Virus genome (UHGV): UHGV-0140603
Length of the DNA stretch: 39,059 nt
Source: a virus
Direction: 5' to 3' (one strand)
How positions within the stretch are numbered: position 1 is the first letter of the stretch; every line of letters starts with the position of its first letter. A program made the position numbers and the translations under genes. Positions 1,796 to 37,659 of this stretch are shown piece after piece. The notes beneath the pieces were generated by a model, which worked only from the letters and a program-made list of their open reading frames with translations, did not search any database and was not told where the DNA came from.

Positions 1796-1837
1796 TCGAT
1801 GTTAGTAACTTCAATCCTATGATTCGTGAGTATAAAA

Positions 1838-4885: not shown

Positions 4886-7800
4886 TTAACTTATTAGATC
4901 CGCTATTTTCTTTTCTTGATATGCCATCCTTATTATTTCAAATTCATCCATACGCATCATGTAAATAGATCTTGTCAATACCAAATTTCCATGTTTATCT
5001 TCTTTAATTTCATCTGCACCTTCTATTAATTTAATAATCCCAAATTCATTAACTGGAATTGGACAAGACTCAATATCAATAGGATAAAAATCACCAGATC
5101 CGTTTTCTCTTACCAAAACACTGGTTTCTTCATACGTAATAAGACCATACTTCTTCCAATCAAGACCAGCTTTTGTAATTGCATCCTTAACTTGCTGCGC
5201 TACAACTCCAAAATGATATCTGGCATGTTCACTTCCTTTTCGTAATATTTCATCCTTCATCTTCCACATTTGAAATTTTACACTACCCACGGCTTCAATA
5301 AGTTCAGTCGGTATATCCGAGAATTCATCTTTGTAATTAACATCTGAAACAACAGTGACAGCATTCTTGCTATATATGTTATTCCAGTATGCTGTCGTTG
5401 TACCATTATTAACTGTTCCTATCTGCCCTGTGGGAGCAAAATAAGGATTATCATTAACTGGATTAGCTATCTCGACAAGAACTTGAGTACCGCCAAAGCT
5501 CCCGCCAGGGAACATACGAAACCTGTTTGGTAAGCGATAGTCATTAGAACCATAAGCATTCCAGCCAGCCCCATTTTCTACAGTACCACGACACCTAAAT
5601 TCAACAACTTCTTGTATCTGCGGTGTTACATCATATCCACCACGTATAGACCAGTACTTATTATTGTCAGATTCTCTGCGGGAATCATGAACACGAAAAG
5701 CACCATTACTAGCATACTGAATGGCTTTTTTATATTCTGAAGTATTTTCTGAATACCCCCCCAATATCCAGTTCTCTCCTAATTTAAAGGAAACATCAAA
5801 AGCAGAACTTATAGAAGAAAGTGGTGAGTTATTAACACGAGTTGTCAAGGCGGAATTCAATGGTAGTTCATTAGCAACCCCACGCGATTGTGAAATAAGA
5901 AATATCTGTTTTCCTCGTTTCGAATACACTCCATCGCTGTACTTTTTATCATTCGAGTATTCCCCACCACTAACTTTATTTGTTATCGCCCACATTCTAA
6001 ATCCATCGGGATCATCAGGAGCAATACCAGAAGCAGTAGAAAAAGCGGAATAATTCTTTCCTTTGTAAGTTATAATAGATGCTCCAGAATCCCAATTATC
6101 CATAGTTAGAATAATAAGGTCTCCTTCATACATATCTATACCTTCAGGTTCAAATGAATGGGGGGTCCCATACTTTGGATTATCCATAAGATTTTTGTAT
6201 CCATAAAGAGAACGAGCCCCCTCAAATGAAAATTCAGCAAGAATATTACCAGAATAATCAAACTTCTGAATAATATGCAACATGAACGGATGTGTATATC
6301 CCCTTAATATATAGATGTACTTACCATCACTGGCAACATCTTGAATAACATGAGTATCAGTTCCGCGCTGCGGATGTGGAATCCTGAAATAATACAATGG
6401 TCTTGCGTCCAAACTATTGTCAAGGGATTCTACGTGTATCCTGCTGTAAACAAATACATACCAGGCATCATCATCTGCTGTGCTATCAGTTGCAACAAGA
6501 ACAACATACCTTCCATCTGAAGATACACACGGGGTTGCTGAATTATAATTCTGATAAGGATGACCAGAACCAGAATATCCAAAAAGCTGATAAGTAATCA
6601 CATCAGATTCAGATGTGCTGCTCCCTTTCCAAATTAATTTTGAATAACCTTTTCCTCCATCATTTCCTCGATATGTAGGCTGGGTAACCATTTGGGTATA
6701 AATAAAAAGGTCATCATCAATAACTATCGTAGATATTCCCTGATGGTTATTTAATATTGGTGCAGTGTAAGTAGTATTTTGCACTACTGAACCATCATCA
6801 GAAAACGAGTATTCAACCAGCCTGCGCTTCTCTAAAGCAGCTGCTGTTCCTGTACCCCCCCCTGGACCATTCGCCGTAAATCGTACACCAATATTATTTT
6901 CAGCAGCCCCTATAGTTGTAAAATCAGTTGAACCTATACTTACTATTTCATATTCAATTCCGGTTATGAAGTCACCAGCTGATGTTACTTTAGAGTTGAA
7001 GTTTCCACTACCTTCAGCACTGCCAACAACCGTTTGTAAAATAAATAATTTTTTACCATTATAATTCGCATAAGCACACCCTTGACTTGTAGCCTCACCA
7101 TTTGGAAAAACTTGGGACTCACCAAAACCCATAAATGCTTCCATTAAATGGCGTTGCACCAATGTATTACTGATATTATTACGAAGAGAAAGTAGATGAC
7201 CAGTTTTGGAAAGAATCATCCCTTCCCCTGTCATTTTGCTTACATCTACTTTCAACGTATCAACAAGATATACTCCAGGTGGAACATAAGCATTTTCAGG
7301 AGCCAGAATAAAAGAATTCGTATCATCAGTTATACCATCTCCAACAGCAGCATAATCTTTCACACTTACTGTATCACGCATCTTATCCTGGAACGTTCTG
7401 TATACAGCTCCAGCACCATACTGGATAAACCATCCGAAACCACCGACAACACCAGCAATTGCAGCATCCACATACTTACGCATTGAACGATTATTTACAG
7501 CGTCCTGCTCAAGTGATGGATCTGCAAGGTTAGAAATTTTGTTTTGCTTTGCATCGTAATATTTTGCAAGCAGCGAGGGCTTCATCAATGCACGTCTGAA
7601 CCACCCAAAACATCGCTGGATCAGCATCGTCAGGTAGTCGAATGCATCCTCATGAACTTCGGGGAAAAATTTTCCCTGATTGCGAAGATCAGTCTCCTGC
7701 ACCACATCAAGCACACGCTCTATCGTAATTCGCCAGCCAGCAGCAAGCGGCGACGGAAGAACCACTTCACCGCCACTATAAGTGCCCGCTCCAGTTACCT

Positions 7801-7960
7801 TATAACCGGTATCAAGCACCAATTCTGTTACGTTCCCGTTCAGATCAGACACCTGAACAACCAGGTCGGATTTTTTGAAAATACGGAAGGTATACGGAAA
7901 TGATGTCGTAACTCCGTTACCGGTGTATTCGTTGTGGTCAACTTCGGTTGAGACCGTCAT
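4886..7960 (-). CDS. Tailspike protein with T7 gp17-like N-terminal particle-binding domain
   Basis: N-terminus YTGNGVTTSFPYTFRIF resembles the tail-fibre adaptor domain; 1024 aa; C-terminal two thirds AT-rich. Confidence 0.8.
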   Translation of the reverse strand: MTVSTEVDHNEYTGNGVTTSFPYTFRIFKKSDLVVQVSDLNGNVTELVLDTGYKVTGAGTYSGGEVVLPSPLAAGWRITIERVLDVVQETDLRNQGKFFPEVHEDAFDYLTMLIQRCFGWFRRALMKPSLLAKYYDAKQNKISNLADPSLEQDAVNNRSMRKYVDAAIAGVVGGFGWFIQYGAGAVYRTFQDKMRDTVSVKDYAAVGDGITDDTNSFILAPENAYVPPGVYLVDTLKVDVSKMTGEGMILSKTGHLLSLRNNISNTLVQRHLMEAFMGFGESQVFPNGEATSQGCAYANYNGKKLFILQTVVGSAEGSGNFNSKVTSAGDFITGIEYEIVSIGSTDFTTIGAAENNIGVRFTANGPGGGTGTAAALEKRRLVEYSFSDDGSVVQNTTYTAPILNNHQGISTIVIDDDLFIYTQMVTQPTYRGNDGGKGYSKLIWKGSSTSESDVITYQLFGYSGSGHPYQNYNSATPCVSSDGRYVVLVATDSTADDDAWYVFVYSRIHVESLDNSLDARPLYYFRIPHPQRGTDTHVIQDVASDGKYIYILRGYTHPFMLHIIQKFDYSGNILAEFSFEGARSLYGYKNLMDNPKYGTPHSFEPEGIDMYEGDLIILTMDNWDSGASIITYKGKNYSAFSTASGIAPDDPDGFRMWAITNKVSGGEYSNDKKYSDGVYSKRGKQIFLISQSRGVANELPLNSALTTRVNNSPLSSISSAFDVSFKLGENWILGGYSENTSEYKKAIQYASNGAFRVHDSRRESDNNKYWSIRGGYDVTPQIQEVVEFRCRGTVENGAGWNAYGSNDYRLPNRFRMFPGGSFGGTQVLVEIANPVNDNPYFAPTGQIGTVNNGTTTAYWNNIYSKNAVTVVSDVNYKDEFSDIPTELIEAVGSVKFQMWKMKDEILRKGSEHARYHFGVVAQQVKDAITKAGLDWKKYGLITYEETSVLVRENGSGDFYPIDIESCPIPVNEFGIIKLIEGADEIKEDKHGNLVLTRSIYMMRMDEFEIIRMAYQEKKIADLIS

Positions 7961-8064: not shown

Positions 8065-8079
8065 TTACCTTTCAGGTGA
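8065..8079. promoter_or_regulatory. Near-palindrome TTACC-TTTCA-GGTGA in the tailspike divergent promoter region
   Basis: One mismatch from the TTACC-N5-GGTAA consensus; followed by ttgcaa and tataaat promoter-like hexamers. Confidence 0.4.
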
Positions 8080-8155
8080 TTTGCAAAACGTGCTGGATAG
8101 CAAACAAATTATTTGTTACTGTATAAATATACAGTTATCGTATGGAGAAGATAAG

Positions 8156-8413
8156 ATGCAGCAGTATCACTATCCACTGGAAGACGGATTTACCGAAAGG
8201 ATTCACACGCCGGGAGGCGTCAGATCACTGGTGGAGGGATCGCACTTGATGAAATTACTCCGGGATCTCGATAAGGATGGATTTAATGTCGATGGCCCAC
8301 TTGCCGAACTGACTGCACTGATTAACTACGTCACCAGCTCACAGATGTCTATGCAGGATCTGCAAACACATCTCGACTATTGTGCCGAACAATTACGAAA
8401 ACAAACCACATAA
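8156..8413 (+). CDS. Hypothetical 85-aa protein, opposite-strand insert inside the late operon
   Basis: ATG at 8156 with SD ggagaag; promoter-like ttgcaa/tataaat upstream; terminator hairpin downstream; no recognisable family. Confidence 0.45.
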   Translation: MQQYHYPLEDGFTERIHTPGGVRSLVEGSHLMKLLRDLDKDGFNVDGPLAELTALINYVTSSQMSMQDLQTHLDYCAEQLRKQTT

Positions 8414-19483: not shown

Positions 19484-19812
19484 TACTCACCCCCATTGCC
19501 GTACAGGGTTTCAGCCGCTGATTTTTCTACATCCCCGGAAACAGGAGCGATCGCCATATCAGTGATCTGCAGATCGGCGCTGCGATTAACACCATCGTCA
19601 GTTTCTCTGGCAGACAGGCCTCGAATAACAGCCTTTGCAGTTATCATCACTTCTGTTCCGACGCCCTGAGGTTGCGCCTTCAGCTTATTCAATGTGTCGT
19701 TATTAAGAGTGATGCACAGCCCCCACGGGTATTCATCGCGAGTTCTGGTTTCTCCGCTCTCATCCTGGTAGCTGTCAGTGCCGGTTTTGAGGTTTACGAG
19801 TTCCATATACAC
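19483..19812 (-). CDS. Hypothetical structural protein
   Basis: 109 aa, within the structural operon. Confidence 0.35.
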   Translation of the reverse strand: MYMELVNLKTGTDSYQDESGETRTRDEYPWGLCITLNNDTLNKLKAQPQGVGTEVMITAKAVIRGLSARETDDGVNRSADLQITDMAIAPVSGDVEKSAAETLYGNGGE

Positions 19813-19817
19813 TCCTG

Positions 19818-19838
19818 CAATAAAGGGGCCGAAGCCCC
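19818..19838 (-). terminator. UUCG-tetraloop hairpin with U-rich tail inside the structural operon (partial terminator)
   Basis: Minus-strand RNA ggggc-uucg-gcccc followed by uuuauu between genes 19857..20201 and 19483..19812. Confidence 0.5.
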
Positions 19839-19856
19839 TTGTCTGATCCGCGAGGC

Positions 19857-20201
19857 TTACACGCCCAGTTCTTTACGCTTATCTGCGATCTTCTCGCGGA
19901 GCGTTTCGGCTTTGGCGTTATGGTGTGGCTTCTCGTTAAAGAGCAATTCGTACTCTTCACGGAGCTTATCCAGTTCACCATCATCTGACACATCGTTGAT
20001 GATTTTGGTGCTGGTTGCTGCCATTGACACCTTTCCTGCAACTTTTGCTTTTGCCTGTCTGGCTGCATCGTTAACAGGTTCCAGTGCGCTACCAGGCTCA
20101 CCTTCGTATTCGATTTCTGCCCCCTCCGGCCACAGAGTGTTATGGATATGAGAGAGGCGCAGAACGCGGTATCTTGGTTTCTCACCTGACATCGATATCA
20201 C
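19857..20201 (-). CDS. Hypothetical head-associated protein
   Basis: 114 aa, charged, downstream of capsid genes. Confidence 0.35.
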   Translation of the reverse strand: MISMSGEKPRYRVLRLSHIHNTLWPEGAEIEYEGEPGSALEPVNDAARQAKAKVAGKVSMAATSTKIINDVSDDGELDKLREEYELLFNEKPHHNAKAETLREKIADKRKELGV

Positions 20202-20202
20202 C

Positions 20203-20640
20203 TTAACCAGTTACTTTTGAGCGGATCGGATACGGCGTATTGGCATCAACATCAAGACTGATACCCGCAGTGAATTCGCCAGCCGTTAGTGGGCCAGTTG
20301 CGACGGAGTAGTTAACACGCAGATATCGCTGAACACCGACAGGCACCTTTGCAGAAACAACTCGTTTACCTGCTGTCAGGGCGGTCTTTGCCAGTGCACC
20401 ACTATCATAAATAGTGGTCCATGAGCTGTTATCCTCACTCGTCTGCAACTGGATGTTTACAGTTGCATCACCGCTTGCTGCGGCGGCTGTGTTAACCAGC
20501 GCCCAAAACTCAAGCGGGTAACCCACGCCGATATCACGACGTTTTCCGTCAATTGGACCGAGATCGATTACGTCAGTAGAAGCCGCGGTATTCGTAACCG
20601 CCTGAGCTTCGGAGAACATCAACAGTTTGTCGGTGATCAT
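20203..20640 (-). CDS. Putative capsid decoration/accessory protein
   Basis: 145 aa, directly downstream of the major capsid gene, separated from it by a stem-loop. Confidence 0.4.
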   Translation of the reverse strand: MITDKLLMFSEAQAVTNTAASTDVIDLGPIDGKRRDIGVGYPLEFWALVNTAAAASGDATVNIQLQTSEDNSSWTTIYDSGALAKTALTAGKRVVSAKVPVGVQRYLRVNYSVATGPLTAGEFTAGISLDVDANTPYPIRSKVTG

Positions 20641-24674: not shown

Positions 24675-24689
24675 TTACCTTTAGGGTAA
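24675..24689. promoter_or_regulatory. Perfect palindrome TTACC-TTTAG-GGTAA
   Basis: Exact 5+5+5 inverted repeat upstream of the 68-aa ORF and portal transcription unit. Confidence 0.5.
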
Positions 24690-25011: not shown

Positions 25012-25088
25012 GTGGCATTAGCTCAGCTGGACAGAGCAACCGCCTTCTAAGCGGTTGGTCGCAGGTTCGAATCCTGCATGCCACGCCA
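25012..25088 (+). tRNA. tRNA-Arg (anticodon UCU)
   Basis: Acceptor stem gtggcat/atgccac, D-arm gctc-agctggaca-gagc, anticodon stem accgc/gcggt with loop cuUCUaa, T-arm gcagg-ttcgaat-cctgc, discriminator G, encoded CCA. Confidence 0.9.
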
Positions 25089-25287: not shown

Positions 25288-25302
25288 TTACCTTATGGGT
25301 AA
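25288..25302. promoter_or_regulatory. Perfect palindrome TTACC-TTATG-GGTAA overlapping a -10-like taatat, 32 nt upstream of the 310-aa ORF
   Basis: Exact inverted repeat; -10-like hexamer 25300-25305. Confidence 0.5.
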
Positions 25303-25334: not shown

Positions 25335-26267
25335 ATGCTTGACTTCATCCGTGACATTTACGCTTCTTTCCGCCAGACATCTCTTGAAAGAGTGAAGAGT
25401 CCATTTCTTGGACCTTTCGTATTTTCGTGGTTGGGGTTTAACTGGCAGATGCTGGCCGTTATCTTTTTTAGCACAAAAAGTATCGAAGAAAGACTTAGTC
25501 TAATAAATAAAAGTTTCGATGTCGGTGATTATATATTTGCCCCTATATGTACTACTGCTTTGATAGTAATAATCCTCCCACGATTTAATAAATTTATCAC
25601 TTGGGTACAGGATAAACCTAACTCTGACACTGTAGAAATGAGTCTGGCATCTAAAATAAAAATCGCAGAATTACAACAGTCCTTAGCTGAAAATGAAGCA
25701 AGAAAAAAACTTGCCGATAAAAAAGAAGAAAGATTTATTGAGGATGGAATATATTCTCTAAAAGAAGAGTTCAAAAAAACAAAAAATGACCTAGAAAAAA
25801 GAAATGACGATGCAAAAATATTGCTAGAAGAAATACGACGTTTAGAAGGCCAACTAGCAAAGGCAGAGGGTCAATTAAATGTAGAACAAGAGTCAAAATC
25901 TCAGATACAAAAAGAGTTGATTATCGAAAGAGATAACAACCGCACATTAGGCGAACAAATAATAAAATCAACATCAGAATCAAATAAATTCAAAGCAGAA
26001 TTATCTTTATCTAAAGAGTCATATGAAAACACATTCAAAGCATACAATGAATTAAAGAAACGGAATGAAATCACTGAAAACTCAATTAGGCACAATCACA
26101 CTAGATACCCATCATTAATAAAACCAGTAAGTGTTAACGGAGCATATACACTAGAATTTAATAAAGGTGTAGAACTATATTTTGACGAAATCAACAAAAC
26201 ATTAACAACCCAAAAAAAGAGAGACTATAAAACCAATAAGGTTAATGCTCGCAATGATGAATTATAG
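25335..26267 (+). CDS. AT-rich hypothetical protein: hydrophobic N-terminal segments plus long coiled-coil; candidate accessory/defence gene
   Basis: 310 aa; opposite strand to flanking terminase and portal; low GC; several AGA codons; no family recognised. Confidence 0.6.
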   Translation: MLDFIRDIYASFRQTSLERVKSPFLGPFVFSWLGFNWQMLAVIFFSTKSIEERLSLINKSFDVGDYIFAPICTTALIVIILPRFNKFITWVQDKPNSDTVEMSLASKIKIAELQQSLAENEARKKLADKKEERFIEDGIYSLKEEFKKTKNDLEKRNDDAKILLEEIRRLEGQLAKAEGQLNVEQESKSQIQKELIIERDNNRTLGEQIIKSTSESNKFKAELSLSKESYENTFKAYNELKKRNEITENSIRHNHTRYPSLIKPVSVNGAYTLEFNKGVELYFDEINKTLTTQKKRDYKTNKVNARNDEL

Positions 26268-26272
26268 TCACT

Positions 26273-27748
26273 TTAAGCAAACGGGTCGTAATCCATGATT
26301 GCCCTGCCCTGCTGGTTCTGCAGCCCAGGAATTCGCAGGCGCTTCGACACAGGGAACGCAAACGTCAGCAGTAGCGCATCGCCTTTACCAGGAGAACGCC
26401 CAAGCCGCTCCTTGATATCTTCCTTCGGTTCGATAACGATTTTACCGTCCACTCGAACTTTGTACTCTGCCGCAGACAGGTCGTCCGCTGTTTCCTGGTC
26501 ATCCAGCATGCCGCCCAGCCTCAGCCATGTCTTGCATGAGTTGAACATCTCCCCACGCTTGTTGAGCATCTGCGGGTCAGTAGACGCGCCACCGAACGGA
26601 ACAAGTTGCCATGTACGACCCCAGCCATCACCGATTGACTTCAGACCAGTTCCGTAACCGAAGTCGATGAACACTGCGTCAGCCTGGTACTGGTCTTCAA
26701 AGTCAGCGATACGCTTCGCCATAATCAGATCGTCAGTGGTCTTGTTGCCAGTCCACAGCACCTTACTGTGCAGCCCCTGCCGCAGGTATATCACAGCGTC
26801 ATCAACGCCGGAGTATGCCGGGTCAACGCCGATTATCACCGGAGCATGTGCAACCTGCGCAGCGGTTACCACCCGTTTCATTGCCTCGTCAGTAAGGCCG
26901 GTAGGGATAAACTGCAATTCAGATGCATCCGGGAATATGCCGCGCACACGGATTTTAACGAAGTCGCTGTCTTCCCCGTAGTCATCAACCCATTTCTGCA
27001 ACTGCTGTTTGTTAGTGCCTTCCACCGTCCGGCTGTCAATCTGCGCAGTTTTCCAGCGGTGTTTATATTTGCGGAAACATTCGCGAAAACGCCCGGTGTT
27101 ACGTGTAGGGTTTCCGAACGCCACCCAGATAATCTCAGTGTCTTCGTCCGTAAGCGCACCCTCAGCAACTTCCCACACCAGATCCGCAATGTTCGACGCT
27201 TCATCGAATACCACGATGATGCGTTTGCGCTCGTTGTGTAGTCCGGCGAATGCCTCAGTGTTGTGCTCAGACCAGGGTATTGCGTCAGCCCGCCACCGCT
27301 TGTCGTGCCCAGGGTCATTGCTGTACATCGCGGTAGCGGTACAGGTAAACCAGTCTTTCGTGATAGCAAGGTTCGACCACTTGATAATTTCCGGCCAGGT
27401 CTTCGTTCGTAGCTGGTTGTCGGTGTTGGCGGTCACCACGACCTTACAATCCTCGCAAGTGGACATGCCCCAGTTGATCAGCATTGAGATGAATGCGGAT
27501 TTACCAATACCGTGACCAGAAGCGCGTGCCAACATAAGCGGCTGATAGCGCGTCTCTGGATTCTGCAGGTGATCACGTATCTCTCGGAACGCATCAGCCT
27601 GCCACTGACGTGGGCCGGTAGCATGTGCCAGTTCAGTCCCCTCTTCCCCCCACGGGAACGCATAGAGGGCATAGCCAAGCGGATCGTGAGTGAACCCTGC
27701 AATATCCTCGATTAACTGCTCTTCAGGAGATAACGCTGTATCTGTCAC
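26273..27748 (-). CDS. Terminase large subunit
   Basis: 491 aa; Walker A-like ASGHGIGKS; start overlaps the small-subunit stop. Confidence 0.8.
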   Translation of the reverse strand: MTDTALSPEEQLIEDIAGFTHDPLGYALYAFPWGEEGTELAHATGPRQWQADAFREIRDHLQNPETRYQPLMLARASGHGIGKSAFISMLINWGMSTCEDCKVVVTANTDNQLRTKTWPEIIKWSNLAITKDWFTCTATAMYSNDPGHDKRWRADAIPWSEHNTEAFAGLHNERKRIIVVFDEASNIADLVWEVAEGALTDEDTEIIWVAFGNPTRNTGRFRECFRKYKHRWKTAQIDSRTVEGTNKQQLQKWVDDYGEDSDFVKIRVRGIFPDASELQFIPTGLTDEAMKRVVTAAQVAHAPVIIGVDPAYSGVDDAVIYLRQGLHSKVLWTGNKTTDDLIMAKRIADFEDQYQADAVFIDFGYGTGLKSIGDGWGRTWQLVPFGGASTDPQMLNKRGEMFNSCKTWLRLGGMLDDQETADDLSAAEYKVRVDGKIVIEPKEDIKERLGRSPGKGDALLLTFAFPVSKRLRIPGLQNQQGRAIMDYDPFA

Positions 27749-28338
27749 TGATTACCATCCTGGCGTTCTTTGAGTCGCTTCCTGGCCGCTGCTATGCGAT
27801 CTGCAATTGTCACATTCACATTAACATCCAGGCGTTCTTTAAACGCGTTAACATCAACATGCTTACCAATCAGCTCAAGGTTCTTCACCTTGTCAGGCCA
27901 TTTAATTTTTTTGAGGATTGTCTCTATCGAATCCTCGTTCATGTTCATGATGGTCGATGACAGATCAAAGCCGCTAAGCGTAGTGCGCCATATTTTCGGC
28001 CACTCGCGGATTGGCTTAAGGCTCCCATCGTCGTTGAGGATGTCGATCACGTCCATCTGGTCGATCTCCACCAGGCGCATAAGAACGTAATCGGCACTGA
28101 CGCGCATTCGTTTGTTGCGTTCCTCCATCAGCTCGGCAATCCGTTTCTGAATGCGTTCATCGCGCATCATAACACTGGCTTTAACTGCCGCTGTATTTGG
28201 AGAGAATCCTGCGTTAATCGCTGCCTGAGTCTGGTTTTCAGGCGTTTTGATGTACGACTGACAATAAGCCTCCTGCATTGCTGTTAGTGGCTTAAATTGC
28301 GTTGATTTGCGTTTATAGGTTTTAGGTTCAGCTGGCAT
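27745..28338 (-). CDS. Terminase small subunit
   Basis: ATG at 28338 with SD aaggtgg; track ORF extends upstream to 28419; immediately precedes large terminase. Confidence 0.65.
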   Translation of the reverse strand: MPAEPKTYKRKSTQFKPLTAMQEAYCQSYIKTPENQTQAAINAGFSPNTAAVKASVMMRDERIQKRIAELMEERNKRMRVSADYVLMRLVEIDQMDVIDILNDDGSLKPIREWPKIWRTTLSGFDLSSTIMNMNEDSIETILKKIKWPDKVKNLELIGKHVDVNAFKERLDVNVNVTIADRIAAARKRLKERQDGNQ

Positions 28339-28358
28339 AATAACCACCTTGGTAATAG

Positions 28359-28373
28359 TTACCGTTTTGGTAA
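28359..28373. promoter_or_regulatory. Perfect palindrome TTACC-GTTTT-GGTAA upstream of the terminase small subunit
   Basis: Exact inverted repeat between an upstream terminator and the terminase RBS. Confidence 0.5.
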
Positions 28374-28383
28374 TAGTATCATG

Positions 28384-28410
28384 CAAAATAAAGCCGCCAT
28401 AGTTGGCGGC
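28384..28410 (-). terminator. Rho-independent terminator between the early/accessory region and the late operon
   Basis: Stem gccgcca/tggcggc, minus-strand U-run uuuauuuu. Confidence 0.6.
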
Positions 28411-28459
28411 AGTATTCAAAACCCATCAAATTCATCATGCATAATCCATTCGTGACATG

Positions 28460-28833: not shown

Positions 28834-29076
28834 TTATCTCCTTTGCATGGCACGTAATTTTTTCAGATGGTTCTCCTGTTCTGTTTCAGCCAGGATCTGG
28901 TGATATTCTCTGTGATCAATGTGTTCGAATAAATTATTGAATTTTCTGATGCACACCCTTCCAGGATAGCCATCCATCCTCTTGAAGAATACTGAGTGAT
29001 CAGTACTACGAATGATTTTTACTGGATAGCCGGCGCTATCGGTGTATATCTGACCACGTTGAATCAGAGAGAACAT
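28834..29076 (-). CDS. Hypothetical small phage protein
   Basis: 80 aa ORF in the accessory region. Confidence 0.35.
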   Translation of the reverse strand: MFSLIQRGQIYTDSAGYPVKIIRSTDHSVFFKRMDGYPGRVCIRKFNNLFEHIDHREYHQILAETEQENHLKKLRAMQRR

Positions 29077-29137
29077 TCGTTTATCCCCAGATAAAAATAT
29101 AGCAATACCAATTACATAAAATACTTCAGGCCAAGCA

Positions 29138-29770
29138 TCATTTCACCTCCTGCGGCGGTTCTGGTAGAGGCATCCAATTGATTACATCGCATTTAGGGAT
29201 GCTGATATCATCACCAAGCCACCCTTGACCTTCAGACCAGCATTGCACGTAATACCCGTATTCTGTGTTCACTACGCACCACTGCGCGTCGTTCGGCATT
29301 CGCTCACTACAGCTTATCCAACCATCCGGAATTACCGGAGAGTTGCCGGGTTCTTTAATGTGCAAGCGAGGCTCACCATCTTTTGGCTCAGGCCACTGGC
29401 GCTCCATGTTGATCTTCAATTTATCTTCCATAGCAGCGGTAATTTCAGCATCGCTGATGCCAGCACGGCGCTGTGCATCCCACAACAGGAACTGCATATC
29501 AGCCCACTCGCTGAGATCGTCAGGTTCGGCTGCGGCTTCCAGAGCCTCTTTTGAGAGGTGTTTCAGTGGACCAATGGGGCCAACGCAGCCAAATGTGGAG
29601 TCAGACCATTTGGCATGCTCGTGGCGAATCTGTTCGCGTTCCAGCGATGCCAGAGCAATTCGTGCCAGTTCTTCCGCTTCTTCTGCTGGCAGTACAACGT
29701 TGCTACCAGGTCCGTATGTTTCGCGCCACTGCTTGATTGTCAGCAGTCGCTCTTTGGTAATAGTTGTCAT
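29138..29770 (-). CDS. DUF550/DUF551-type phage protein (pyrophosphohydrolase-like N-domain)
   Basis: Two-domain architecture; C-terminal WISCSERMP...NWMPLPEPP matches DUF551-like signatures as recalled. Confidence 0.5.
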   Translation of the reverse strand: MTTITKERLLTIKQWRETYGPGSNVVLPAEEAEELARIALASLEREQIRHEHAKWSDSTFGCVGPIGPLKHLSKEALEAAAEPDDLSEWADMQFLLWDAQRRAGISDAEITAAMEDKLKINMERQWPEPKDGEPRLHIKEPGNSPVIPDGWISCSERMPNDAQWCVVNTEYGYYVQCWSEGQGWLGDDISIPKCDVINWMPLPEPPQEVK

Positions 29771-30282
29771 GCCGCGTTTCCTTCTTTCTTATTAACAATT
29801 ACACCGTCATATATTTCATTAAGGTGCCCTCTCAACTCCATGCGCCTTAATGCAGATAACATGTAATCGCATTCAACCTGCTTATTTCCAGTAAATGGCT
29901 TATCGTCAGGATTACCCCAACAGCAATTGCCCTTTGGCCACCCATGTACTTTCCGTACTCTTCCGTTAACAACGTGAAGTAATCCCCAGCCAGGTGGTAA
30001 ATCCTCAATTGAAATAATCCCCGGCTCACTAATAAAGAATCGCCAGTCGCCCATTCCAAGAGACGGATTTTTACGAAAACGCTTTTTTCTATCTGCCAAC
30101 AAGTCAGCACGAGAACACTTCGCCTCTATCAGGCATGATGCTGAATTTCTGAATCCCATAGCATCTGGCTGTTCTCCGGTACTGGTTACAGCTATAAAGC
30201 GGTCATGAAAACAAACCTTGAACCCGTTGCGCTTAAGGAACTTGTACGCAATCTGACAGAGTTCGCTGTGTGTTAACGCCAT
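29767..30282 (-). CDS. PD-(D/E)XK-family nuclease (MmcB-like)
   Basis: Motif PDAMGF...CLIEAKCS consistent with D...(D/E)xK. Confidence 0.45.
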   Translation of the reverse strand: MALTHSELCQIAYKFLKRNGFKVCFHDRFIAVTSTGEQPDAMGFRNSASCLIEAKCSRADLLADRKKRFRKNPSLGMGDWRFFISEPGIISIEDLPPGWGLLHVVNGRVRKVHGWPKGNCCWGNPDDKPFTGNKQVECDYMLSALRRMELRGHLNEIYDGVIVNKKEGNAA

Positions 30283-30283
30283 A

Positions 30284-31072
30284 TCACTCTCCTTTCCCCT
30301 GAAGCATGGCGTTGCTCCGCTCTATACCATCCAGCGCGATTCGCAGTGCCTGAATTGTGGTAATGCTATCGTTTGGGGCTATTCCATATCGCTCGAATAC
30401 AGCGATATGACCGCGCATAATCTCAGGCGTAAGCTCTTTGTAAGCATAAGCAAGCGACCCTGATGCATTATCCGGCACTACCGGCGATGGCTGTTTAGCT
30501 TCTAAATCAGCTATTCTGTCAACCACGGCATCGACAGCATCTGAAAAGCCGAACCAGTTGCTCCACTCCGGCCTGTTACCGGTTGCTGCAAAGTACATAT
30601 CATCTAAAGCAGACTCAGCATGGTCACGCTCATTGATGAGTTGCTCTTCGCTTTTCTCCAGTTCAGCAATACGCTTACTTCCATCCGAGATAACACCTTC
30701 GTAATACTCGCGCTGCTCGTTGAGTTTTGATTTTGTCTCCTCAAGCTCAACACGCAGCTTCCCTACCGTTAGCGCAATATCCTCGTTCTCCTGGTCGCGG
30801 CGTTTGATGTATTGCTGGTTTCTTTCCCGTTCATCCAGAAGCGCCAGCACTAATTTAGGGTTGAAAGCTGCGATAAATTCTGCGTTGTTCTCTGCATTTT
30901 TCTGGTCGTCAAAGCCAGGCCATTTGATAATGTCTCCGCAACGTTCATCCCCCGGCGTATGCACCGCATATGTACCAGTGTCCGGCGAGATGAATGCACG
31001 CCATTCGCCCTGTGTTGCCTGTTGCGCTATCTTACGTAAGGTAGCTAATTGTTCGCTGGTAAAAGTCATCAT
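30284..31072 (-). CDS. Ead/Ea22-like protein
   Basis: MMTFTSEQL...ATQGEW N-terminus and coiled-coil centre; shares NAEFIAAxNPxxVLALLDE with the adjacent gene; track ORF starts at 31111. Confidence 0.5.
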   Translation of the reverse strand: MMTFTSEQLATLRKIAQQATQGEWRAFISPDTGTYAVHTPGDERCGDIIKWPGFDDQKNAENNAEFIAAFNPKLVLALLDERERNQQYIKRRDQENEDIALTVGKLRVELEETKSKLNEQREYYEGVISDGSKRIAELEKSEEQLINERDHAESALDDMYFAATGNRPEWSNWFGFSDAVDAVVDRIADLEAKQPSPVVPDNASGSLAYAYKELTPEIMRGHIAVFERYGIAPNDSITTIQALRIALDGIERSNAMLQGKGE

Positions 31073-31455
31073 GGTTGCATCTCCCGTTCTTCTGCCCACT
31101 TCCGAAGCCATTCAATCTCACCATTACGAGCTATCAGCTCGCGACACAGTCTTTCGTTTTCATCCAGCAGCGCCAGCACGGTAGCTGGATTGGCTGCGGC
31201 GATGAATTCAGCATTGGCCTGCTGTTCCATTTGGAAATCTTCATAGAAACGGCTTTCTGGATGCGCTCCTTCAATTCTGCAAATAGGAATATATCCAGCA
31301 ACCTCGCGATGAATTAGTGCATCATCACCATCAAATCGTCCCTCTCCATATTCGAGCGACCACACACCACACGTTGCTTTCTCTGCCTTAGCACGCAATG
31401 CCTGATAGTCAATCTTGCTCACTGGTTGCCTCCTTTGCGAAGCTGCTCCGCACAA
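31069..31455 (-). CDS. Ead/Ea22-like N-terminal-domain protein (paralogous to downstream gene)
   Basis: Shared motif NAEFIAAANPATVLALLDENERL. Confidence 0.5.
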   Translation of the reverse strand: MCGAASQRRQPVSKIDYQALRAKAEKATCGVWSLEYGEGRFDGDDALIHREVAGYIPICRIEGAHPESRFYEDFQMEQQANAEFIAAANPATVLALLDENERLCRELIARNGEIEWLRKWAEEREMQP

Positions 31456-31898
31456 TGCAGCAGGGCGTCCGTCGCTTCTTTCACCGTAACGATGTCGCCA
31501 TCGTCCAGCCCGGCAACCGTCGCGTCCTTAACGAACACCGAGCAAAGGTCATTAAACGCCTGCGCCCGTACTTCAGACAGGAAAGAGTCGGTGGCTGTGG
31601 TTTCGATATCGTTAATTTCAGGAAGAATCTCTTCCCATGTAGCGATATCGCCATTCAAATGCCATCCGGCAATTCCACTGGAGTTATCCGCAACACTGCG
31701 AACAGCTTCAATAGTTTCATGCATTGCCGCATTCTCCGCCGCCAGCGCATTAGCACGCACCAGTTGCACTTCAAGTTGCGTTGCCAAATCGCTGATCAGC
31801 TTTGCCACACTGCGCATATCAACGGCACCACATTCTGCTTTCAGTTCCGAAGCCATCTCATGCCCGGCGGCAACTAACCATTTGATATTACTTTCCAT
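31419..31898 (-). CDS. Hypothetical phage protein
   Basis: 159 aa acidic ORF. Confidence 0.4.
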   Translation of the reverse strand: MESNIKWLVAAGHEMASELKAECGAVDMRSVAKLISDLATQLEVQLVRANALAAENAAMHETIEAVRSVADNSSGIAGWHLNGDIATWEEILPEINDIETTATDSFLSEVRAQAFNDLCSVFVKDATVAGLDDGDIVTVKEATDALLHCAEQLRKGGNQ

Positions 31899-32307: not shown

Positions 32308-32322
32308 TTACCAATTAGGTAA
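32308..32322. promoter_or_regulatory. Perfect palindrome TTACC-AATTA-GGTAA, 4 nt upstream of the DUF1064 start codon
   Basis: Exact inverted repeat. Confidence 0.5.
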
Positions 32323-32369
32323 TTAAAAACCACATAAGACATGAAATCAATAGATGTTAGAACATTTTG

Positions 32370-32384
32370 TTACCCACCAGGTAA
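32370..32384. promoter_or_regulatory. Perfect palindrome TTACC-CACCA-GGTAA
   Basis: Exact inverted repeat, 48 bp from the previous site. Confidence 0.5.
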
Positions 32385-34337: not shown

Positions 34338-34363
34338 TATGAAAAGACCGCCGGATGGCGGTC
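34338..34363 (-). terminator. Rho-independent terminator after the Cro-like gene (tR1-like position)
   Basis: Stem gaccgcc/ggcggtc, loop ggat, minus-strand U-run. Confidence 0.55.
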
Positions 34364-34385
34364 TACAGAGGGTTGTGGCTGGATA

Positions 34386-34616
34386 TCATGAGTAGAAGAA
34401 GTATGCCAATTCTGCTTTTGAGCGCAGCCATTGTCTTGTTTTACAGGCTTTAAAAAGCCCATTCATCAATACCTTACCTGGCATTTTGCGCTTACCTGTT
34501 AAGTGAGTCTGGATATAGTGACTCGTCGTTCCGGCTTCCTGTGCGAAGGCTTCACGCTCATCCGGAGTAAGTGCAAGCCAGTGCTTTTTGAAATCGAAAT
34601 GTCCGTTATCGCTCAT
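34386..34616 (-). CDS. Cro-like HTH regulator
   Basis: 76 aa, HTH-like segment, divergent from the repressor gene across the operator region. Confidence 0.55.
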   Translation of the reverse strand: MSDNGHFDFKKHWLALTPDEREAFAQEAGTTSHYIQTHLTGKRKMPGKVLMNGLFKACKTRQWLRSKAELAYFFYS

Positions 34617-34652
34617 AGCTATTGCCTGATATTTATTTCAGATAATAAATAT

Positions 34653-34715
34653 TCACCCATAAGGTAACAAAAATCAAGGATAGTTACCCATGAGGTGCAT
34701 TTACCTGTTGGGTAA
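34653..34715. promoter_or_regulatory. Right operator region: three TTACC-N5-GGTAA-type sites between the cro-like and repressor genes
   Basis: Sites 34653-34667 (tcacc..ggtaa), 34684-34698 (ttacc..ggtgc), 34701-34715 (perfect). Confidence 0.65.
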
Positions 34716-34770
34716 TATTGCTTTAAATTGAATCATCTTCTGATTCATATATGAGGCGATTTTCCAGAAA

Positions 34771-35355
34771 ATGAAAAGTATCCAGGACGTCCGCAGGCAA
34801 AATCTCAACGACTTGATCGACCGTGAATTCAATGGTGTTCAGACGCGGATGGCTGAAAAACTTGGAACTCAGGCAAATCTGGTAAACCGCTGGGCTCTTG
34901 GCAAGAAGGTTATCGGCGACCAGGTTGCGCGAAAAATTGAAGCTGCCGCCAATAAACCACGTAACTGGCTTGATATCGATCGCTCGCTTTCTCAGGAGGG
35001 TTTTCAGCCTGTCGGACCAAGCGACATTGGTCAGCTGGCGGCTCACAACCTGGAACGCTGGATGAGCGAAAGCCGCGACCTTTCAACACAGGGAAAACTT
35101 CACCGCGCATCCGGCGTCGCCCAAGTGACAATCAGCCGCCTGTTAAACAATGAGGTCAGCGTTTCCATTTCCACCCTGGAGAATGTTGCATCTGCATTCG
35201 GGCGTCACGGATATGAACTACTGATTCACCCGCACGACCCTGCAACTATCAACTATGACCGCTCGCGCTACGCATTGTTACCTGAAACCGAGAAAGCAAA
35301 GATCGAAAGTTACATTGAATTTGTCATCAACCAGAACGAAAAAAACAAACAATAA
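34771..35355 (+). CDS. Repressor-like protein with two HTH regions and no peptidase S24 domain
   Basis: N-terminal XRE-type HTH, second HTH-like segment ~120-150; no Ala-Gly/Ser-Lys autocleavage motifs. Confidence 0.6.
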   Translation: MKSIQDVRRQNLNDLIDREFNGVQTRMAEKLGTQANLVNRWALGKKVIGDQVARKIEAAANKPRNWLDIDRSLSQEGFQPVGPSDIGQLAAHNLERWMSESRDLSTQGKLHRASGVAQVTISRLLNNEVSVSISTLENVASAFGRHGYELLIHPHDPATINYDRSRYALLPETEKAKIESYIEFVINQNEKNKQ

Positions 35356-35376
35356 AATCATATTTTTCAGTAAGTA

Positions 35377-35400
35377 AGCCGCCAAATGGCGGCTTTTTTA
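35377..35400 (+). terminator. Rho-independent terminator after the repressor gene
   Basis: Stem agccgcc/ggcggct, loop aaat, then ttttt. Confidence 0.65.
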
Positions 35401-35412: not shown

Positions 35413-35489
35413 TTACCTTGCAGGTAATTTTTTCAACTCATATCTATTGACACCAAACCAAATACGCATAATTATTACCTCAACGGTAA
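35413..35489 (+). promoter_or_regulatory. Left operator/promoter: two perfect palindromes flanking a TTGACA -35
   Basis: Sites 35413-35427 and 35475-35489; ttgaca at 35447-35452; A/T-rich -10-like region ~35467-35475. Confidence 0.6.
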
Positions 35490-35663: not shown

Positions 35664-35963
35664 ATGAACGTTAATCAGCAGCAAAATCTTCAAAAAATCA
35701 TGCTGGCATTCGACAAGGACTACCGCCTGTCAGAACAGCTATATGACCGACAAGTTGAACTGATCGAGAGCATCCGGCTTCATCAACTAGCCTCAACTTT
35801 CGACGCTGTAACAGGTAAAGGCGTTCGCCAGGAAGTACTGGAGGCCGCTAAAGACAGTCCAGAGTTCGAAGAACTGATGGATTCCTACCGGCGCGAGGCA
35901 ATGGCAATTATCGCCCGCTGGGATCTGGCTGATCAGCTTGATGGGCAGAGGGACGCGGCATGA
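35664..35963 (+). CDS. Hypothetical early protein
   Basis: ATG at 35664 with SD gggaggg; track ORF starts at 35649; overlaps next gene start. Confidence 0.5.
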   Translation: MNVNQQQNLQKIMLAFDKDYRLSEQLYDRQVELIESIRLHQLASTFDAVTGKGVRQEVLEAAKDSPEFEELMDSYRREAMAIIARWDLADQLDGQRDAA

Positions 35964-36781
35964 AGCCGGGAATTTATTTCGACATCAGCAACGAAGACTA
36001 CCACGCCGGGGACGGCGTGAGTAAGTCGCAACTGGACATGGTTGCCAAGAATCCGGCGCTTCTTAAATGGGTTCAGGCAGCACCAGAAGACGAAGAGAAA
36101 AAGTCTGCACTGGATATGGGAACCGCATTGCACTGTCTGCTTCTGGAGCCTGGAGAATTCAACAAACGCTTCATTGTTTCACCGAAATTCGATCGTCGGA
36201 CGAAACAAGGTAAAGCTGACGAAGAAGCATTTCTTCGTGATGTAGCGGATATGGGGATTACGGTACTTGATGCCGAGCAGTGGCGGAAACTGGAGCTGAT
36301 GCGTGATAGCGCAATGGCTCACCCGGCGGCACGCTGGATGCTGGAAGCACCTGGTTACTGCGAAGCATCAATGTACTGGAATGATGAAGAGACTGGTGAG
36401 TTGTGCCGCATTCGTCCAGACAAATGGCTGAACGAGCACAACGTGATCGTCGACGTGAAAAAGGTTGCAGATATGGACCGTTTTGCACGCCACATCGAGG
36501 AATTCCGCTACCACGTGCAGGACGCAATGTACCGCGAAGGAGCGATGAGGGTTACTGGTCAGTCGCATGGTTTTTTCTTTCTTGCCGTGAGCGAAAGCAT
36601 TGATTGTGGTCGGTATCCGGTACGCGTGTTCGAGCTGGATGCGCCGGATGTCGATGCCGGGCACGCTCTGTTCCGCCGGGATCTGAATACCTATCACGAA
36701 TGCCGCATCAATGATGAATGGGGCGGCGTGGAAATTATTAAACGCCCTGACTGGGCACGTAAACAGGATATGTACGTATGA
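35960..36781 (+). CDS. PD-(D/E)XK-type recombination exonuclease
   Basis: N-terminus MKPGIYFDISNEDYHAGDGVSKSQLDM typical of this family; directly upstream of and coupled to a Bet/RecT-like gene. Confidence 0.6.
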   Translation: MKPGIYFDISNEDYHAGDGVSKSQLDMVAKNPALLKWVQAAPEDEEKKSALDMGTALHCLLLEPGEFNKRFIVSPKFDRRTKQGKADEEAFLRDVADMGITVLDAEQWRKLELMRDSAMAHPAARWMLEAPGYCEASMYWNDEETGELCRIRPDKWLNEHNVIVDVKKVADMDRFARHIEEFRYHVQDAMYREGAMRVTGQSHGFFFLAVSESIDCGRYPVRVFELDAPDVDAGHALFRRDLNTYHECRINDEWGGVEIIKRPDWARKQDMYV

Positions 36782-37659
36782 GCAATGATATCGCAATCAC
36801 ATCACAACCAGGCGCAACTGTAGGTACTGCTGCGGCAATCTTCAGCCCGGAGGGCATGAATCAACTGGTGCGTTTCGCGGAGTTGATGTCACAAAGCAAA
36901 GCGACTGTACCGAAACATCTTGAAGGCAAACCTGCCGATTGTCTGGCGGTGACCATGCAGGCGGCACAGTGGGGAATGAACCCTTTCGCCGTGGCGCAGA
37001 AAACGCATGTGGTAAACGGAACGTTAGGCTACGAAGCACAGTTGGTAAACGCGGTCGTATCCTCTTCCAGCCTGCTAGCGACACGCCTGAATTATCGCTG
37101 GAGCGGTGACTGGTCGAATGTTAACGGCAAAACAGATAAATCACCGAATCTGACGGTAACTGTGTCAGCAGTTCTTAAAGGAGAAGCAGAACCCCGTGAG
37201 CTTACCATCAGTATGGCGCAAGCCGGAGTGCGTAACTCTCCATTGTGGGAACAGGATCCGCGCCAGCAGCTTGCCTATCTTTGCACGAAACGATGGGCTC
37301 GCCTGCACGCTCCTGATGTACTTCTCGGTGTTTACACCCCTGACGAATTACAGGAAACGGCACCGCGCGTTGAGCGAGACATTACTCCGCAAACGACTAC
37401 TGCTGCGGGAATGAACAGTCTGATCAACGCTAAACCAGTGAAAAAGCCTGATGAGCAAACGCGTAAAGCGGATAGCCGTGATCCAGAAGAAATGCTGATG
37501 GCCTTTACCAGCGCAGCGATGAATTACAGCACTGTCTCCGAACTGGATAAGGCTTACAAATACATTGCACAAAAACTTTCAGATGATGACGAACTGCTGG
37601 CAAAAGCCACCGACGTTTACAGCGTTCGTCGGGAAGAATTAAACGAAACATCTATGTAA
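36778..37659 (+). CDS. Bet/RecT-superfamily single-strand annealing protein
   Basis: AAQWGMNPF and PLWEQDPRQQLAYLCTKRWARL resemble lambda Bet AxQYGLNPW and PWQSHPKRMLRHKAMIQCARL. Confidence 0.6.
   Translation: MSNDIAITSQPGATVGTAAAIFSPEGMNQLVRFAELMSQSKATVPKHLEGKPADCLAVTMQAAQWGMNPFAVAQKTHVVNGTLGYEAQLVNAVVSSSSLLATRLNYRWSGDWSNVNGKTDKSPNLTVTVSAVLKGEAEPRELTISMAQAGVRNSPLWEQDPRQQLAYLCTKRWARLHAPDVLLGVYTPDELQETAPRVERDITPQTTTAAGMNSLINAKPVKKPDEQTRKADSRDPEEMLMAFTSAAMNYSTVSELDKAYKYIAQKLSDDDELLAKATDVYSVRREELNETSM

What the first reader, a model, noticed from the sequence alone, without database searches (positions are those of the whole stretch)
34386..35355. Two-HTH repressor without an autocleavage domain implies antirepressor-mediated induction
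The repressor candidate has an XRE-type HTH and a second HTH-like region but no S24 peptidase motifs, so RecA-stimulated self-cleavage is unlikely. Induction would then need an antirepressor, which is not obvious in this window. The dimeric two-HTH arrangement fits the 5-bp half-site palindromes.
Basis: inference. Interest (0 to 1): 0.45.

Follow-up and report, generated by a model that had tools for sequence, protein, structure and literature searches.

The report
Known Rep–Ant phage switch, antirepressor found
The repressor is an ordinary member of an already solved phage switch, in which a small antirepressor made after DNA damage, rather than self-cleavage, switches the repressor off; that antirepressor gene is in this window, 26 kb from the repressor.

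Summary
The window is a phiV10/epsilon15-type (Uetakevirus) prophage of E. coli.

- **Repressor:** it is 100% identical to the annotated repressors of phiV10 and ZX5. It is a full-length homologue (42% identity, E 4e-42) of Rep of Salmonella phage SPC32H, whose structure is solved alone and bound to its antirepressor Ant (PDB 5D4Z, 5D50).
- **Antirepressor:** An 85-aa gene at 8156-8413 is 88% identical to SPC32H Ant (E 1e-47).
- **SOS control:** a near-consensus LexA box (CTGTATAAATATACAG, 8119-8134) and a Rep operator-like site (8065-8079) lie just upstream of ant. Both are conserved in phiV10 and SPC32H.
- **Two corrections:** the second HTH-like region corresponds to the published dimerization domain, not a second DNA reader, and a C-terminal tetramerization/Ant-binding module follows it. 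Rep is reported to bind DNA as a tetramer, not a dimer.
- **Operators:** the palindrome TTACC-N5-GGTAA is real, with 11 sites against 0.56 expected by chance. All 11 are intergenic, and the site clusters recur at equivalent positions in four related phages.

The central inference is correct, but the system is already known.

The parts
34771..35355 (+). rep: 194-aa prophage repressor. Layout: N-terminal Cro/YdaS-like DNA-binding domain (about 1-60), linker, middle XRE-HTH-like domain (about 86-151), C-terminal tail with a long helix (about 152-194).
   Evidence: Full-length match to PDB 5D50_A Rep of SPC32H (E 4e-42, 42% identity). 100% identical to phiV10 p40 and ZX5 ORF21. Domains; model and fold search.
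34386..34616 (-). Cro-like 76-aa gene, first gene of the rightward (replication) operon, divergent from rep.
   Evidence: phrog_35 'transcriptional repressor', E 5.6e-13. 76% identical to SPC32H_042 at the same position. Equivalent to phiV10 p41.
34653..34715 (.). OR operator cluster with three sites: 34653-34667 TCACCCATAAGGTAA, 34684-34698 TTACCCATGAGGTGC, 34701-34715 TTACCTGTTGGGTAA. A PR-like promoter on the minus strand (TTGTTA-17-TATTAT, 34670-34642) overlaps the first site.
   Evidence: Half-sites are invariant across five phages while the 5-bp spacers vary.
35413..35489 (.). OL/PL: operators at 35413-35427 and 35475-35489, 62 bp apart, flank a promoter-like site (TTGACA-17-AATTAT, 35447-35475) that faces the early-left genes starting at 35509.
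   Evidence: SPC32H has equivalent sites.
35376..35395 (+). Terminator-like hairpin after rep.
   Evidence: A terminator is annotated at the equivalent place in phiV10.
34345..34364 (-). Terminator-like hairpin after the Cro-like gene.
8156..8413 (+). ant: 85-aa antirepressor gene, with the ribosome-binding site GGAGAA 6 nt upstream of the ATG.
   Evidence: PDB 5D50_E 'Anti-repressor protein', E 1.3e-47. 88% identical to the annotated ant of SPC32H. phrog_450, plus the C-terminal part of phrog_1760 'anti-repressor'. Same position between the end of the structural operon and the tail spike as in SPC32H.
8119..8134 (.). LexA (SOS) box CTGTATAAATATACAG. The 20-mer TACTGTATAAATATACAGTT matches the consensus TACTGTATATATATACAGTA at 18 of 20 positions. 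It ends 22 bp before the ant start codon.
   Evidence: Conserved at the same place in phiV10 and SPC32H and Tyrion. BUCT711 has one mismatch.
8065..8079 (.). Rep operator-like site (TTACCTTTCAGGTGA, one mismatch) upstream of ant.
   Evidence: The aligned site in SPC32H is a perfect TTACCTTACAGGTAA.
32308..32384 (.). Two further exact operator sites, 62 bp apart, flanking a conserved promoter-like stretch (CTATTGAT) between the replication gene P and the DUF1064 gene.
   Evidence: Five-phage alignment.
28341..28373 (.). Two operator sites (one exact, one with one mismatch) just upstream of the probable terS start (ATG at 28338, minus strand).
   Evidence: Equivalent sites in phiV10, SPC32H and Tyrion.
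24675..24689 (.). Exact operator site about 90 bp upstream of the first head-operon gene (phiV10 p06 homologue).
   Evidence: Equivalent sites at phiV10 3252, SPC32H 3175, Tyrion 3969 and BUCT711 34570.
25288..25302 (.). Exact operator site 33 bp upstream of a window-specific 310-aa gene (25335-26267).

Best explanation
This is the immunity switch of a phiV10/epsilon15-type (Uetakevirus) prophage, and it works like the Rep-Ant switch characterised in Salmonella phage SPC32H.

- **Repression:** Rep uses its N-terminal HTH domain to bind 15-bp palindromes (TTACC-N5-GGTAA) at OR, OL and other promoters, and so keeps the prophage silent.
- **Rep architecture:** the middle HTH-like domain dimerizes the protein. 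The C-terminal strand-plus-helix module makes tetramers and is the docking site for Ant.
- **No self-cleavage:** Rep has no S24 peptidase and is not expected to be cleaved with RecA.
- **Control of ant:** the distant ant gene (8156-8413) is held off by host LexA at a near-consensus SOS box, and probably also by Rep at an adjacent operator.
- **Induction:** DNA damage leads to LexA self-cleavage, so Ant is made. Ant binds the Rep C-terminal module, disassembles the tetramer and releases the DNA, and the lytic promoters fire.

**Shown here:** homology of both proteins to the crystallised pair, absence of S24, the LexA box and operators with their conservation, and synteny.

**Inferred from the SPC32H literature:** tetramer binding, Ant-Rep contact and LexA control in vivo.
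For: - Rep matches 5D50_A over residues 1-190 (E 4e-42) and 5D4Z over 89-190. BLASTP gives 42% identity. The Foldseek top hits are 5D50 and 5D4Z, with target-normalised TM-score 0.78 for the C-terminal fragment.
- Ant matches 5D50_E with E 1.3e-47. It is 88% identical to the gene annotated 'ant: anti-repressor protein' in SPC32H.
- The LexA box and the Rep operator upstream of ant are conserved in the window, phiV10 and SPC32H.
- Gene order is the same as in SPC32H, phiV10 and a near-identical E. coli prophage.
- No S24 was found by any test.
- The operator motif is strongly enriched. It recurs at the same intergenic positions in five phages, with invariant half-sites and free spacers.
- PMC9638917 reports that Rep binds as a tetramer and that the Ant tetramer splits it.
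- PMC9986798 gives the DBD-MDD-CAD/TetDloop domain layout and Ant binding at the CAD.
- PMC7380047 reports that Ant is made after LexA self-cleavage.
- PMC9782041 reports that overexpressing the identical Rep (ZX5 ORF21) cut lysis-gene transcripts by more than 99.9%.
Against: - Nothing here tests binding or induction for this particular prophage.
- Rep is only 42% identical to the crystallised protein (39% in the C-terminal half), so the Ant interface is inferred.
- The operator at the ant promoter has one mismatch in the window.
- The ant promoter hexamers could not be placed with confidence.
- The two primary SPC32H papers (Kim & Ryu 2013; Kim et al. 2016) are not held. Statements about non-cleavage of Rep and about LexA binding at the ant promoter rest on my recollection of their abstracts and on secondary citations.
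Confidence: 0.9

Rival explanations
1. The antirepressor of this phage group is the Bro-N domain protein (phiV10 p23 'anti-immunity protein', ZX5 ORF4), not the 85-aa Ant.
For: phiV10 annotates p23 as an anti-immunity protein. The ZX5 paper found that overexpressing its Bro-N ORF4 lowered prophage numbers and cut repressor transcripts by 75%. The C-terminus of p23 has a short stretch resembling the N-terminus of Ant (45% identity over 31 residues, E 1e-6).
Against: The window lacks this gene entirely. phiV10 positions 19531-20542 have no counterpart, and the flanks join at window 8411-8413. SPC32H, where the switch was worked out, also lacks it. It therefore cannot be the inducer here and is at most an accessory in some relatives.
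Confidence: 0.03
2. Rep is inactivated by RecA-stimulated self-cleavage through a cryptic, divergent S24-like domain, as in lambda CI.
For: None was found. It is only the default paradigm for lambdoid-looking immunity regions.
Against: There is no S24 match at E<=10 and no Ala-Gly or Cys-Gly site. Every part of the protein is assigned to helical domains. No LexA or CI C-terminal-domain fold appears among the listed fold-search matches. None of the 86 homologues has PF00717.
Confidence: 0.02
3. Both HTH-like domains of one Rep chain read DNA, so a single chain or a simple dimer spans the palindrome.
For: The middle domain is the better Pfam HTH_3 match (25.8 bits against 16.1 bits for the N-terminal domain).
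Against: The operator is a perfect inverted repeat of identical half-sites. That calls for two copies of the same reading head, and the two domains show no similarity to each other. In SPC32H the middle domain is described as a dimerization domain and the N-terminal one as the DBD. Rep binds as a tetramer and the dimer binds DNA only weakly.
Confidence: 0.05

Closest known systems
Rep-Ant switch of Salmonella phage SPC32H (PDB 5D4Z, 5D50; Kim & Ryu 2013 J Virol; Kim et al. 2016 PNAS)
   Same: Both are Uetakeviruses with the same gene order. The Rep homologue is full-length and the Ant homologue is 88% identical. A LexA box plus a Rep operator lie upstream of ant. The operator half-sites (TTACC/GGTAA) are the same, and the operators sit in the same places.
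   Different: Rep is only 42% identical: 54% in the N-terminal domain, 25% in the linker and 39% in the C-terminal half. The host is E. coli, not Salmonella. OL has two sites here and three in SPC32H. The operator at the ant promoter has one mismatch here.
phiV10 p40 and p24, and ZX5 ORF21 (E. coli Uetakeviruses)
   Same: Rep is 100% identical and Ant is 97.6-100% identical. The immunity-region DNA is about 97% identical.
   Different: phiV10 and ZX5 carry an extra Bro-N 'anti-immunity/anti-repressor' gene downstream of ant, which this prophage lacks. Their records and the ZX5 paper leave the true Ant homologue as 'hypothetical protein'.
Coliphage 186 CI-Tum and Salmonella Gifsy repressor-antirepressor pairs (Lemire et al. 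2011, PMC3121763)
   Same: The logic is the same: a non-cleavable repressor is neutralised by a small antirepressor whose gene is repressed by LexA.
   Different: No sequence relationship appeared in the family searches of Ant, although it was not tested directly. These are different phage types, and the antirepressors bind their repressors differently.
Rco-Rap of Bacillus plasmid pLS20 and the p53 tetramerization domain (TetDloop; PMC9986798)
   Same: The repressor is built as an N-terminal DBD plus a C-terminal strand-helix tetramerization module, and it is relieved by a protein partner.
   Different: Rep has an additional middle dimerization domain. The replicon and the partner protein are unrelated.
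Lambda CI / LexA (S24 autocleaving repressors)
   Same: The immunity-region layout is the same: divergent rep and cro-like genes, OR with three sites, and OL beyond a terminator.
   Different: There is no S24 domain and no cleavage site. Oligomerization is by a different module, and induction is by sequestration instead of cleavage.

Membership tests
SPC32H-type Rep-Ant antirepression switch (Uetakevirus) | Repressor homologous to Rep over its full length (DBD, middle domain, C-terminal tetramerization/Ant-binding module) | tested here: met
   phmmer against 5D50_A covers residues 1-190 with E 4e-42. BLASTP gives 42% identity. The Foldseek top hits are 5D50 and 5D4Z.
SPC32H-type Rep-Ant antirepression switch (Uetakevirus) | Small Ant protein homologous to SPC32H Ant | tested here: met
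   8156-8413 against 5D50_E gives E 1.3e-47. It is 88% identical to the annotated ant of KC911856.
SPC32H-type Rep-Ant antirepression switch (Uetakevirus) | LexA box at the ant promoter | tested here: met
   CTGTATAAATATACAG at 8119-8134 ends 22 bp before the ATG. It aligns with the box in SPC32H and phiV10.
SPC32H-type Rep-Ant antirepression switch (Uetakevirus) | Repressor lacks an autocleavage (S24) domain | tested here: met
SPC32H-type Rep-Ant antirepression switch (Uetakevirus) | Same genomic placement: ant between the end of the structural operon and the tail-spike gene, rep divergent from a cro-like gene | tested here: met
SPC32H-type Rep-Ant antirepression switch (Uetakevirus) | Ant physically binds the Rep C-terminal module and releases Rep from DNA; Rep binds as a tetramer | not testable with these tools
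   Known only for SPC32H. The C-terminal residues Y162, L170 and F184 are invariant in 38 homologues, which fits a conserved interface but does not prove one.
SPC32H-type Rep-Ant antirepression switch (Uetakevirus) | Rep is not cleaved during the SOS response; induction needs ant | not testable with these tools
   This needs a Western blot and a delta-ant lysogen.
Lambda CI / LexA-type autocleaving repressors (Peptidase S24) | C-terminal S24 Ser-Lys peptidase domain and an Ala-Gly (or Cys-Gly) cleavage site | tested here: not met
   No PF00717 match at E<=10, no AG or CG dipeptide, and no such fold among the listed matches.
Bro-N / KilA-N type phage antirepressors (phiV10 p23, ZX5 ORF4) | Bro-N domain gene present in the prophage | tested here: not met
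   phiV10 positions 19531-20542, which carry p23, are absent from the window. No Bro-N match was found among the ORFs searched.
186 Tum / Gifsy GfoA-type antirepressors | Sequence homology of the antirepressor to Tum or GfoA | not tested
   No direct comparison was run. Pfam, PHROG and NCBIfam searches of Ant gave no annotated family apart from the C-terminal part of phrog_1760 'anti-repressor'. From memory, Kim & Ryu 2013 describe Ant as structurally distinct from those antirepressors.

The most novel reading that the evidence does not exclude
Rep may do more than guard the early promoters. Its operator sits in about eight conserved intergenic clusters in five Uetakeviruses. These lie in front of terS, the head operon, the lysis genes, int, ant, the post-replication (nin-like) operon and, in this window, a prophage-specific gene. 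At PL and at the nin-like promoter, two sites 62 bp apart bracket the promoter. One Rep tetramer with two DNA-binding pairs could clamp such a pair, which would make Rep a genome-wide silencer, like P1 C1 with its dispersed operators. Separately, Ant is far more conserved than Rep (88% against 42%), so one Ant might cross-induce heteroimmune relatives. I could not check whether the primary SPC32H papers already describe either point.
Probability: 0.4. Interest if true: 0.35.

Novelty: already known. Interest (0 to 1): 0.12.

Why it matters
It matters little for new biology. The mechanism is published, with crystal structures, for a close relative, and the identical repressor has been tested in phage ZX5.

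The practical value lies in annotation. About 10% of complete E. coli genomes carry this switch (540 of 5426 for the rep region, 531 for the ant region). RefSeq calls Ant a 'hypothetical protein' and Rep merely 'helix-turn-helix domain-containing protein', and NCBIfam has no model for either. At least one paper on this phage group named a different gene as the antirepressor.

Recognising the LexA-controlled ant predicts that these prophages are SOS-inducible. phiV10-type phages are used as E. coli O157 reporter phages, so this is of some practical interest.

Tried and rejected
- **Primary SPC32H papers and the epsilon15 genome paper:** I tried them by DOI and PMC id, and none is held. I relied on secondary descriptions and on my memory of the abstracts.
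- **Bro-N/KilA-N or P22-type antirepressor:** none is present, and the phiV10 Bro-N gene is deleted here.
- **Cryptic S24 domain:** none was found by Pfam at E<=10, by motif inspection, in the homologues' domain lists or by fold search.
- **Internal duplication between the two HTH-like domains:** no similarity was found.
- **NCBIfam and PADLOC:** neither was informative for Rep or Ant.
- **ant promoter:** the consensus scan did not place credible -35/-10 hexamers.
- **Second CTGT-N8-ACAG at 20662:** it lies inside the structural-gene region, has a GC-rich spacer, and two such matches are within chance expectation. I treated it as chance.
- **Script access to Tyrion and BUCT711:** these loci were not available to the Python sandbox, so I scanned them with the DNA search instead.

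Full report
**What the window is.** The 1.2 kb around the finding is 97% identical to E. coli phage phiV10 and its relatives. It occurs in 540 of 5426 complete E. coli genomes. The whole window aligns with phiV10 in reverse orientation and in prophage permutation. Bases 1 to about 1886 are host DNA carrying yfgH and yfgI. A related prophage in strain MLI121, with a 99.5% identical immunity region, lies between yfgI and guaA. There, only a DUF1382 gene and the integrase lie beyond the point where the window ends.

**The observation.** The coordinates cover two divergent genes: a 76-aa Cro-like gene (34386-34616, minus strand) and the 194-aa repressor (34771-35355, plus strand).
- Pfam finds two HTH-like regions and nothing else.
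- Residues 21-61 match YdaS/Cro-like at 20.6 bits and HTH_3 at 16 bits, both below the Pfam cut-offs.
- Residues 106-147 match HTH_3 at 25.8 bits, above the cut-off.
- The two halves show no detectable similarity to each other.
- No S24 peptidase was found. There is no match even at E<=10 and no Ala-Gly or Cys-Gly dipeptide. None of 86 homologues, almost all about 190-200 aa and all from Enterobacterales where a source names the organism, carries PF00717.
- An AlphaFold model (mean pLDDT 76) shows a four-helix N-terminal domain, a disordered linker, a five-helix middle domain and a tail ending in a long helix. No space is left for a beta-barrel peptidase.

It is also already on record: the phiV10 GenBank entry annotates the identical protein as 'putative transcriptional repressor; two helix-turn-helix motifs'.

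**What it is.**
- The repressor matches the 'Repressor' chains of PDB 5D50 over residues 1-190 (E 4e-42) and of 5D4Z over 89-190 (E 4e-20). These are Rep of Salmonella phage SPC32H, alone and in complex with its antirepressor.
- Foldseek returns the same entries first, followed only by ordinary XRE-HTH proteins.
- A perfect CTGT-N8-ACAG site lies at 8119-8134, immediately upstream of an 85-aa ORF at 8156-8413.
- That ORF matches chain E of 5D50, 'Anti-repressor protein', with E 1.3e-47. It is 88% identical to the gene annotated ant in SPC32H.
- SPC32H has the same gene order: ant sits between the end of the structural operon and the tail spike, and rep is divergent from a cro-like gene.
- An alignment of the ant upstream regions of the window, phiV10 and SPC32H shows the LexA box conserved. 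A Rep operator lies about 50 bp further upstream; it is perfect in SPC32H and has one mismatch in the window and in phiV10.
- Tyrion has the same LexA box, and the Klebsiella phage BUCT711 has it with one mismatch.

**Operators.**
- TTACC-N5-GGTAA occurs 11 times with at most one mismatch, against 0.56 expected.
- By my reading of the ORF maps, all 11 sites are intergenic. This assumes terS starts at the ATG at 28338, not at the upstream TTG that RefSeq and phiV10 use.
- OR has three sites, counting a two-mismatch site at 34684-34698 that is not among the 11. OL has two sites, 62 bp apart, bracketing a TTGACA-17-AATTAT promoter.
- Further sites lie upstream of ant, terS and the head operon, upstream of a window-specific gene, and as a 62-bp pair between the P and DUF1064 genes.
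- phiV10, SPC32H, Tyrion and BUCT711 have the motif at the equivalent places. phiV10, SPC32H and Tyrion also have it before the lysis genes and before int.
- In alignments the half-sites are invariant while the spacers vary.
- SPC32H uses the same half-sites although its Rep is only 42% identical. The putative recognition stretch NLVNRW is conserved between the two proteins.

**How it works.** The literature describes SPC32H Rep as an N-terminal DBD, a middle dimerization domain and a C-terminal 'CAD'. The CAD is a p53-like strand-helix tetramerization module that also binds Ant (PMC9986798).
- Rep binds DNA as a tetramer whose DNA-binding pairs come from different dimers, and the dimer binds only weakly.
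- Ant is produced after LexA self-cleavage (PMC7380047, citing Kim & Ryu 2013).
- The identical E. coli Rep (ZX5 ORF21) cut lysis-gene transcripts by more than 99.9% when overexpressed (PMC9782041).
- From memory of the Kim & Ryu 2013 abstract, which is not held here: Rep is not cleaved in the SOS response, and a single base change in the LexA box makes the sister phage SPC32N constitutively lytic.

I conclude, with about 0.9 confidence, that this prophage uses the same switch. The step from homology to function in this particular prophage is inferred.

1. The antirepressor is in the window.
2. The second HTH-like region corresponds to the dimerization domain, not to a second DNA reader. It is nevertheless the better Pfam HTH match, which is why it caught the eye.
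3. The functional unit is a tetramer, not a dimer.
4. The perfectly symmetric half-sites fit two copies of the same N-terminal domain, not two different HTH domains.

**The Bro-N gene.** phiV10 and ZX5 carry a Bro-N gene downstream of ant. It is annotated 'anti-immunity' in phiV10 and treated as the anti-repressor in the ZX5 paper. The window lacks that 1-kb segment, as does SPC32H, so it is dispensable for the switch. Its C-terminus has a short stretch resembling the N-terminus of Ant.

**Novelty.** The system is already known. NCBIfam has no model for either protein, and RefSeq labels Ant 'hypothetical protein' in the eight records listed out of the 531 E. coli genomes that carry the region. 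The finding therefore has annotation value only. Two points might be new but could not be checked against the primary papers: the dispersed, conserved operator network with its 62-bp promoter-bracketing pairs, and the much stronger conservation of Ant than of Rep.

Noticed in passing
window 8065, 24675, 25288, 28341, 28359, 32308, 32370, 34653, 34701, 35413, 35475; equivalent sites in L001-L004: The Rep operator motif is not confined to OR and OL. It sits in conserved intergenic positions across five Uetakeviruses, in front of terS, the head operon, ant and the post-replication operon, and in phiV10, SPC32H and Tyrion also in front of the lysis genes and int. At PL and at the P/DUF1064 intergenic promoter, two sites exactly 62 bp apart bracket the promoter.
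   Followed up: partly
window 8411-8413 (junction); L001 19531-20542: This prophage lacks about 1 kb that phiV10 has. The missing segment carries the Bro-N 'anti-immunity' gene p23, the small gene p22, their own operator site (phiV10 20497) and a terminator. SPC32H also lacks it.
   Followed up: partly
window 8156-8413; RefSeq WP_025651152.1 in L005: The true Ant homologue is labelled 'hypothetical protein' in RefSeq, phiV10 and ZX5. The ZX5 paper (PMC9782041) names the Bro-N ORF4 as the antirepressor and does not mention this gene. NCBIfam has no model for Rep or Ant.
   Followed up: partly
window 8156-8413 versus 34771-35355: Ant is 88% identical to SPC32H Ant, and the Cro-like protein is 76% identical to its SPC32H counterpart. 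Rep is only 42% identical (39% in its C-terminal half). The operator half-sites are nevertheless the same. This raises the question of cross-induction or partial cross-immunity between E. coli and Salmonella Uetakeviruses.
   Followed up: partly
window 27745-28419 (minus strand): The terS start is probably annotated too far upstream (TTG at 28419, as in phiV10 and RefSeq). A terminator-like hairpin and two operator sites lie inside the first 80 nt. An ATG at 28338 (MPAEPKTYK...) matches the shorter terS of SPC32H and Tyrion.
   Followed up: partly
window 25012-25088 and 25335-26267: A tRNA-Arg(TCT) lies here. Next to it is a window-specific 310-aa gene (N-terminal hydrophobic segment, then long coiled coil; phrog_13369, unknown function) with a Rep operator 33 bp upstream. 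It has no PADLOC match. It is absent from phiV10 at this position.
   Followed up: no
window 3991-4830 and 4886-7960: The tail-fibre and O-antigen-modification module differs from phiV10. It holds a 279-aa hexapeptide-repeat acetyltransferase-like gene ending in a thrice-repeated AAQQHSST motif and a 1024-aa tail fibre. This suggests a different receptor or serotype-conversion specificity.
   Followed up: no
window 35960-36781 and 36778-37659: The RecE-like exonuclease and RecT are separate overlapping genes here, as in SPC32H and Tyrion. phiV10 annotates a single fused 'recET' gene. The window-phiV10 alignment also breaks at 37055-37281.
   Followed up: no
window 1-1886: The host flank carries yfgH (722-1240) and yfgI (1256-1795). 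In a near-identical prophage the other junction is at the 3' end of guaA, the attachment site reported for ZX5, phiV10 and epsilon15.
   Followed up: yes
window 28841-31727: The late-early 'nin-like' region is mosaic relative to phiV10. It holds two Ead/Ea22-like genes, a dATP/dGTP pyrophosphohydrolase-DUF551 fusion, DUF4222 and a 171-aa gene of unknown function (phrog_9263).
   Followed up: no
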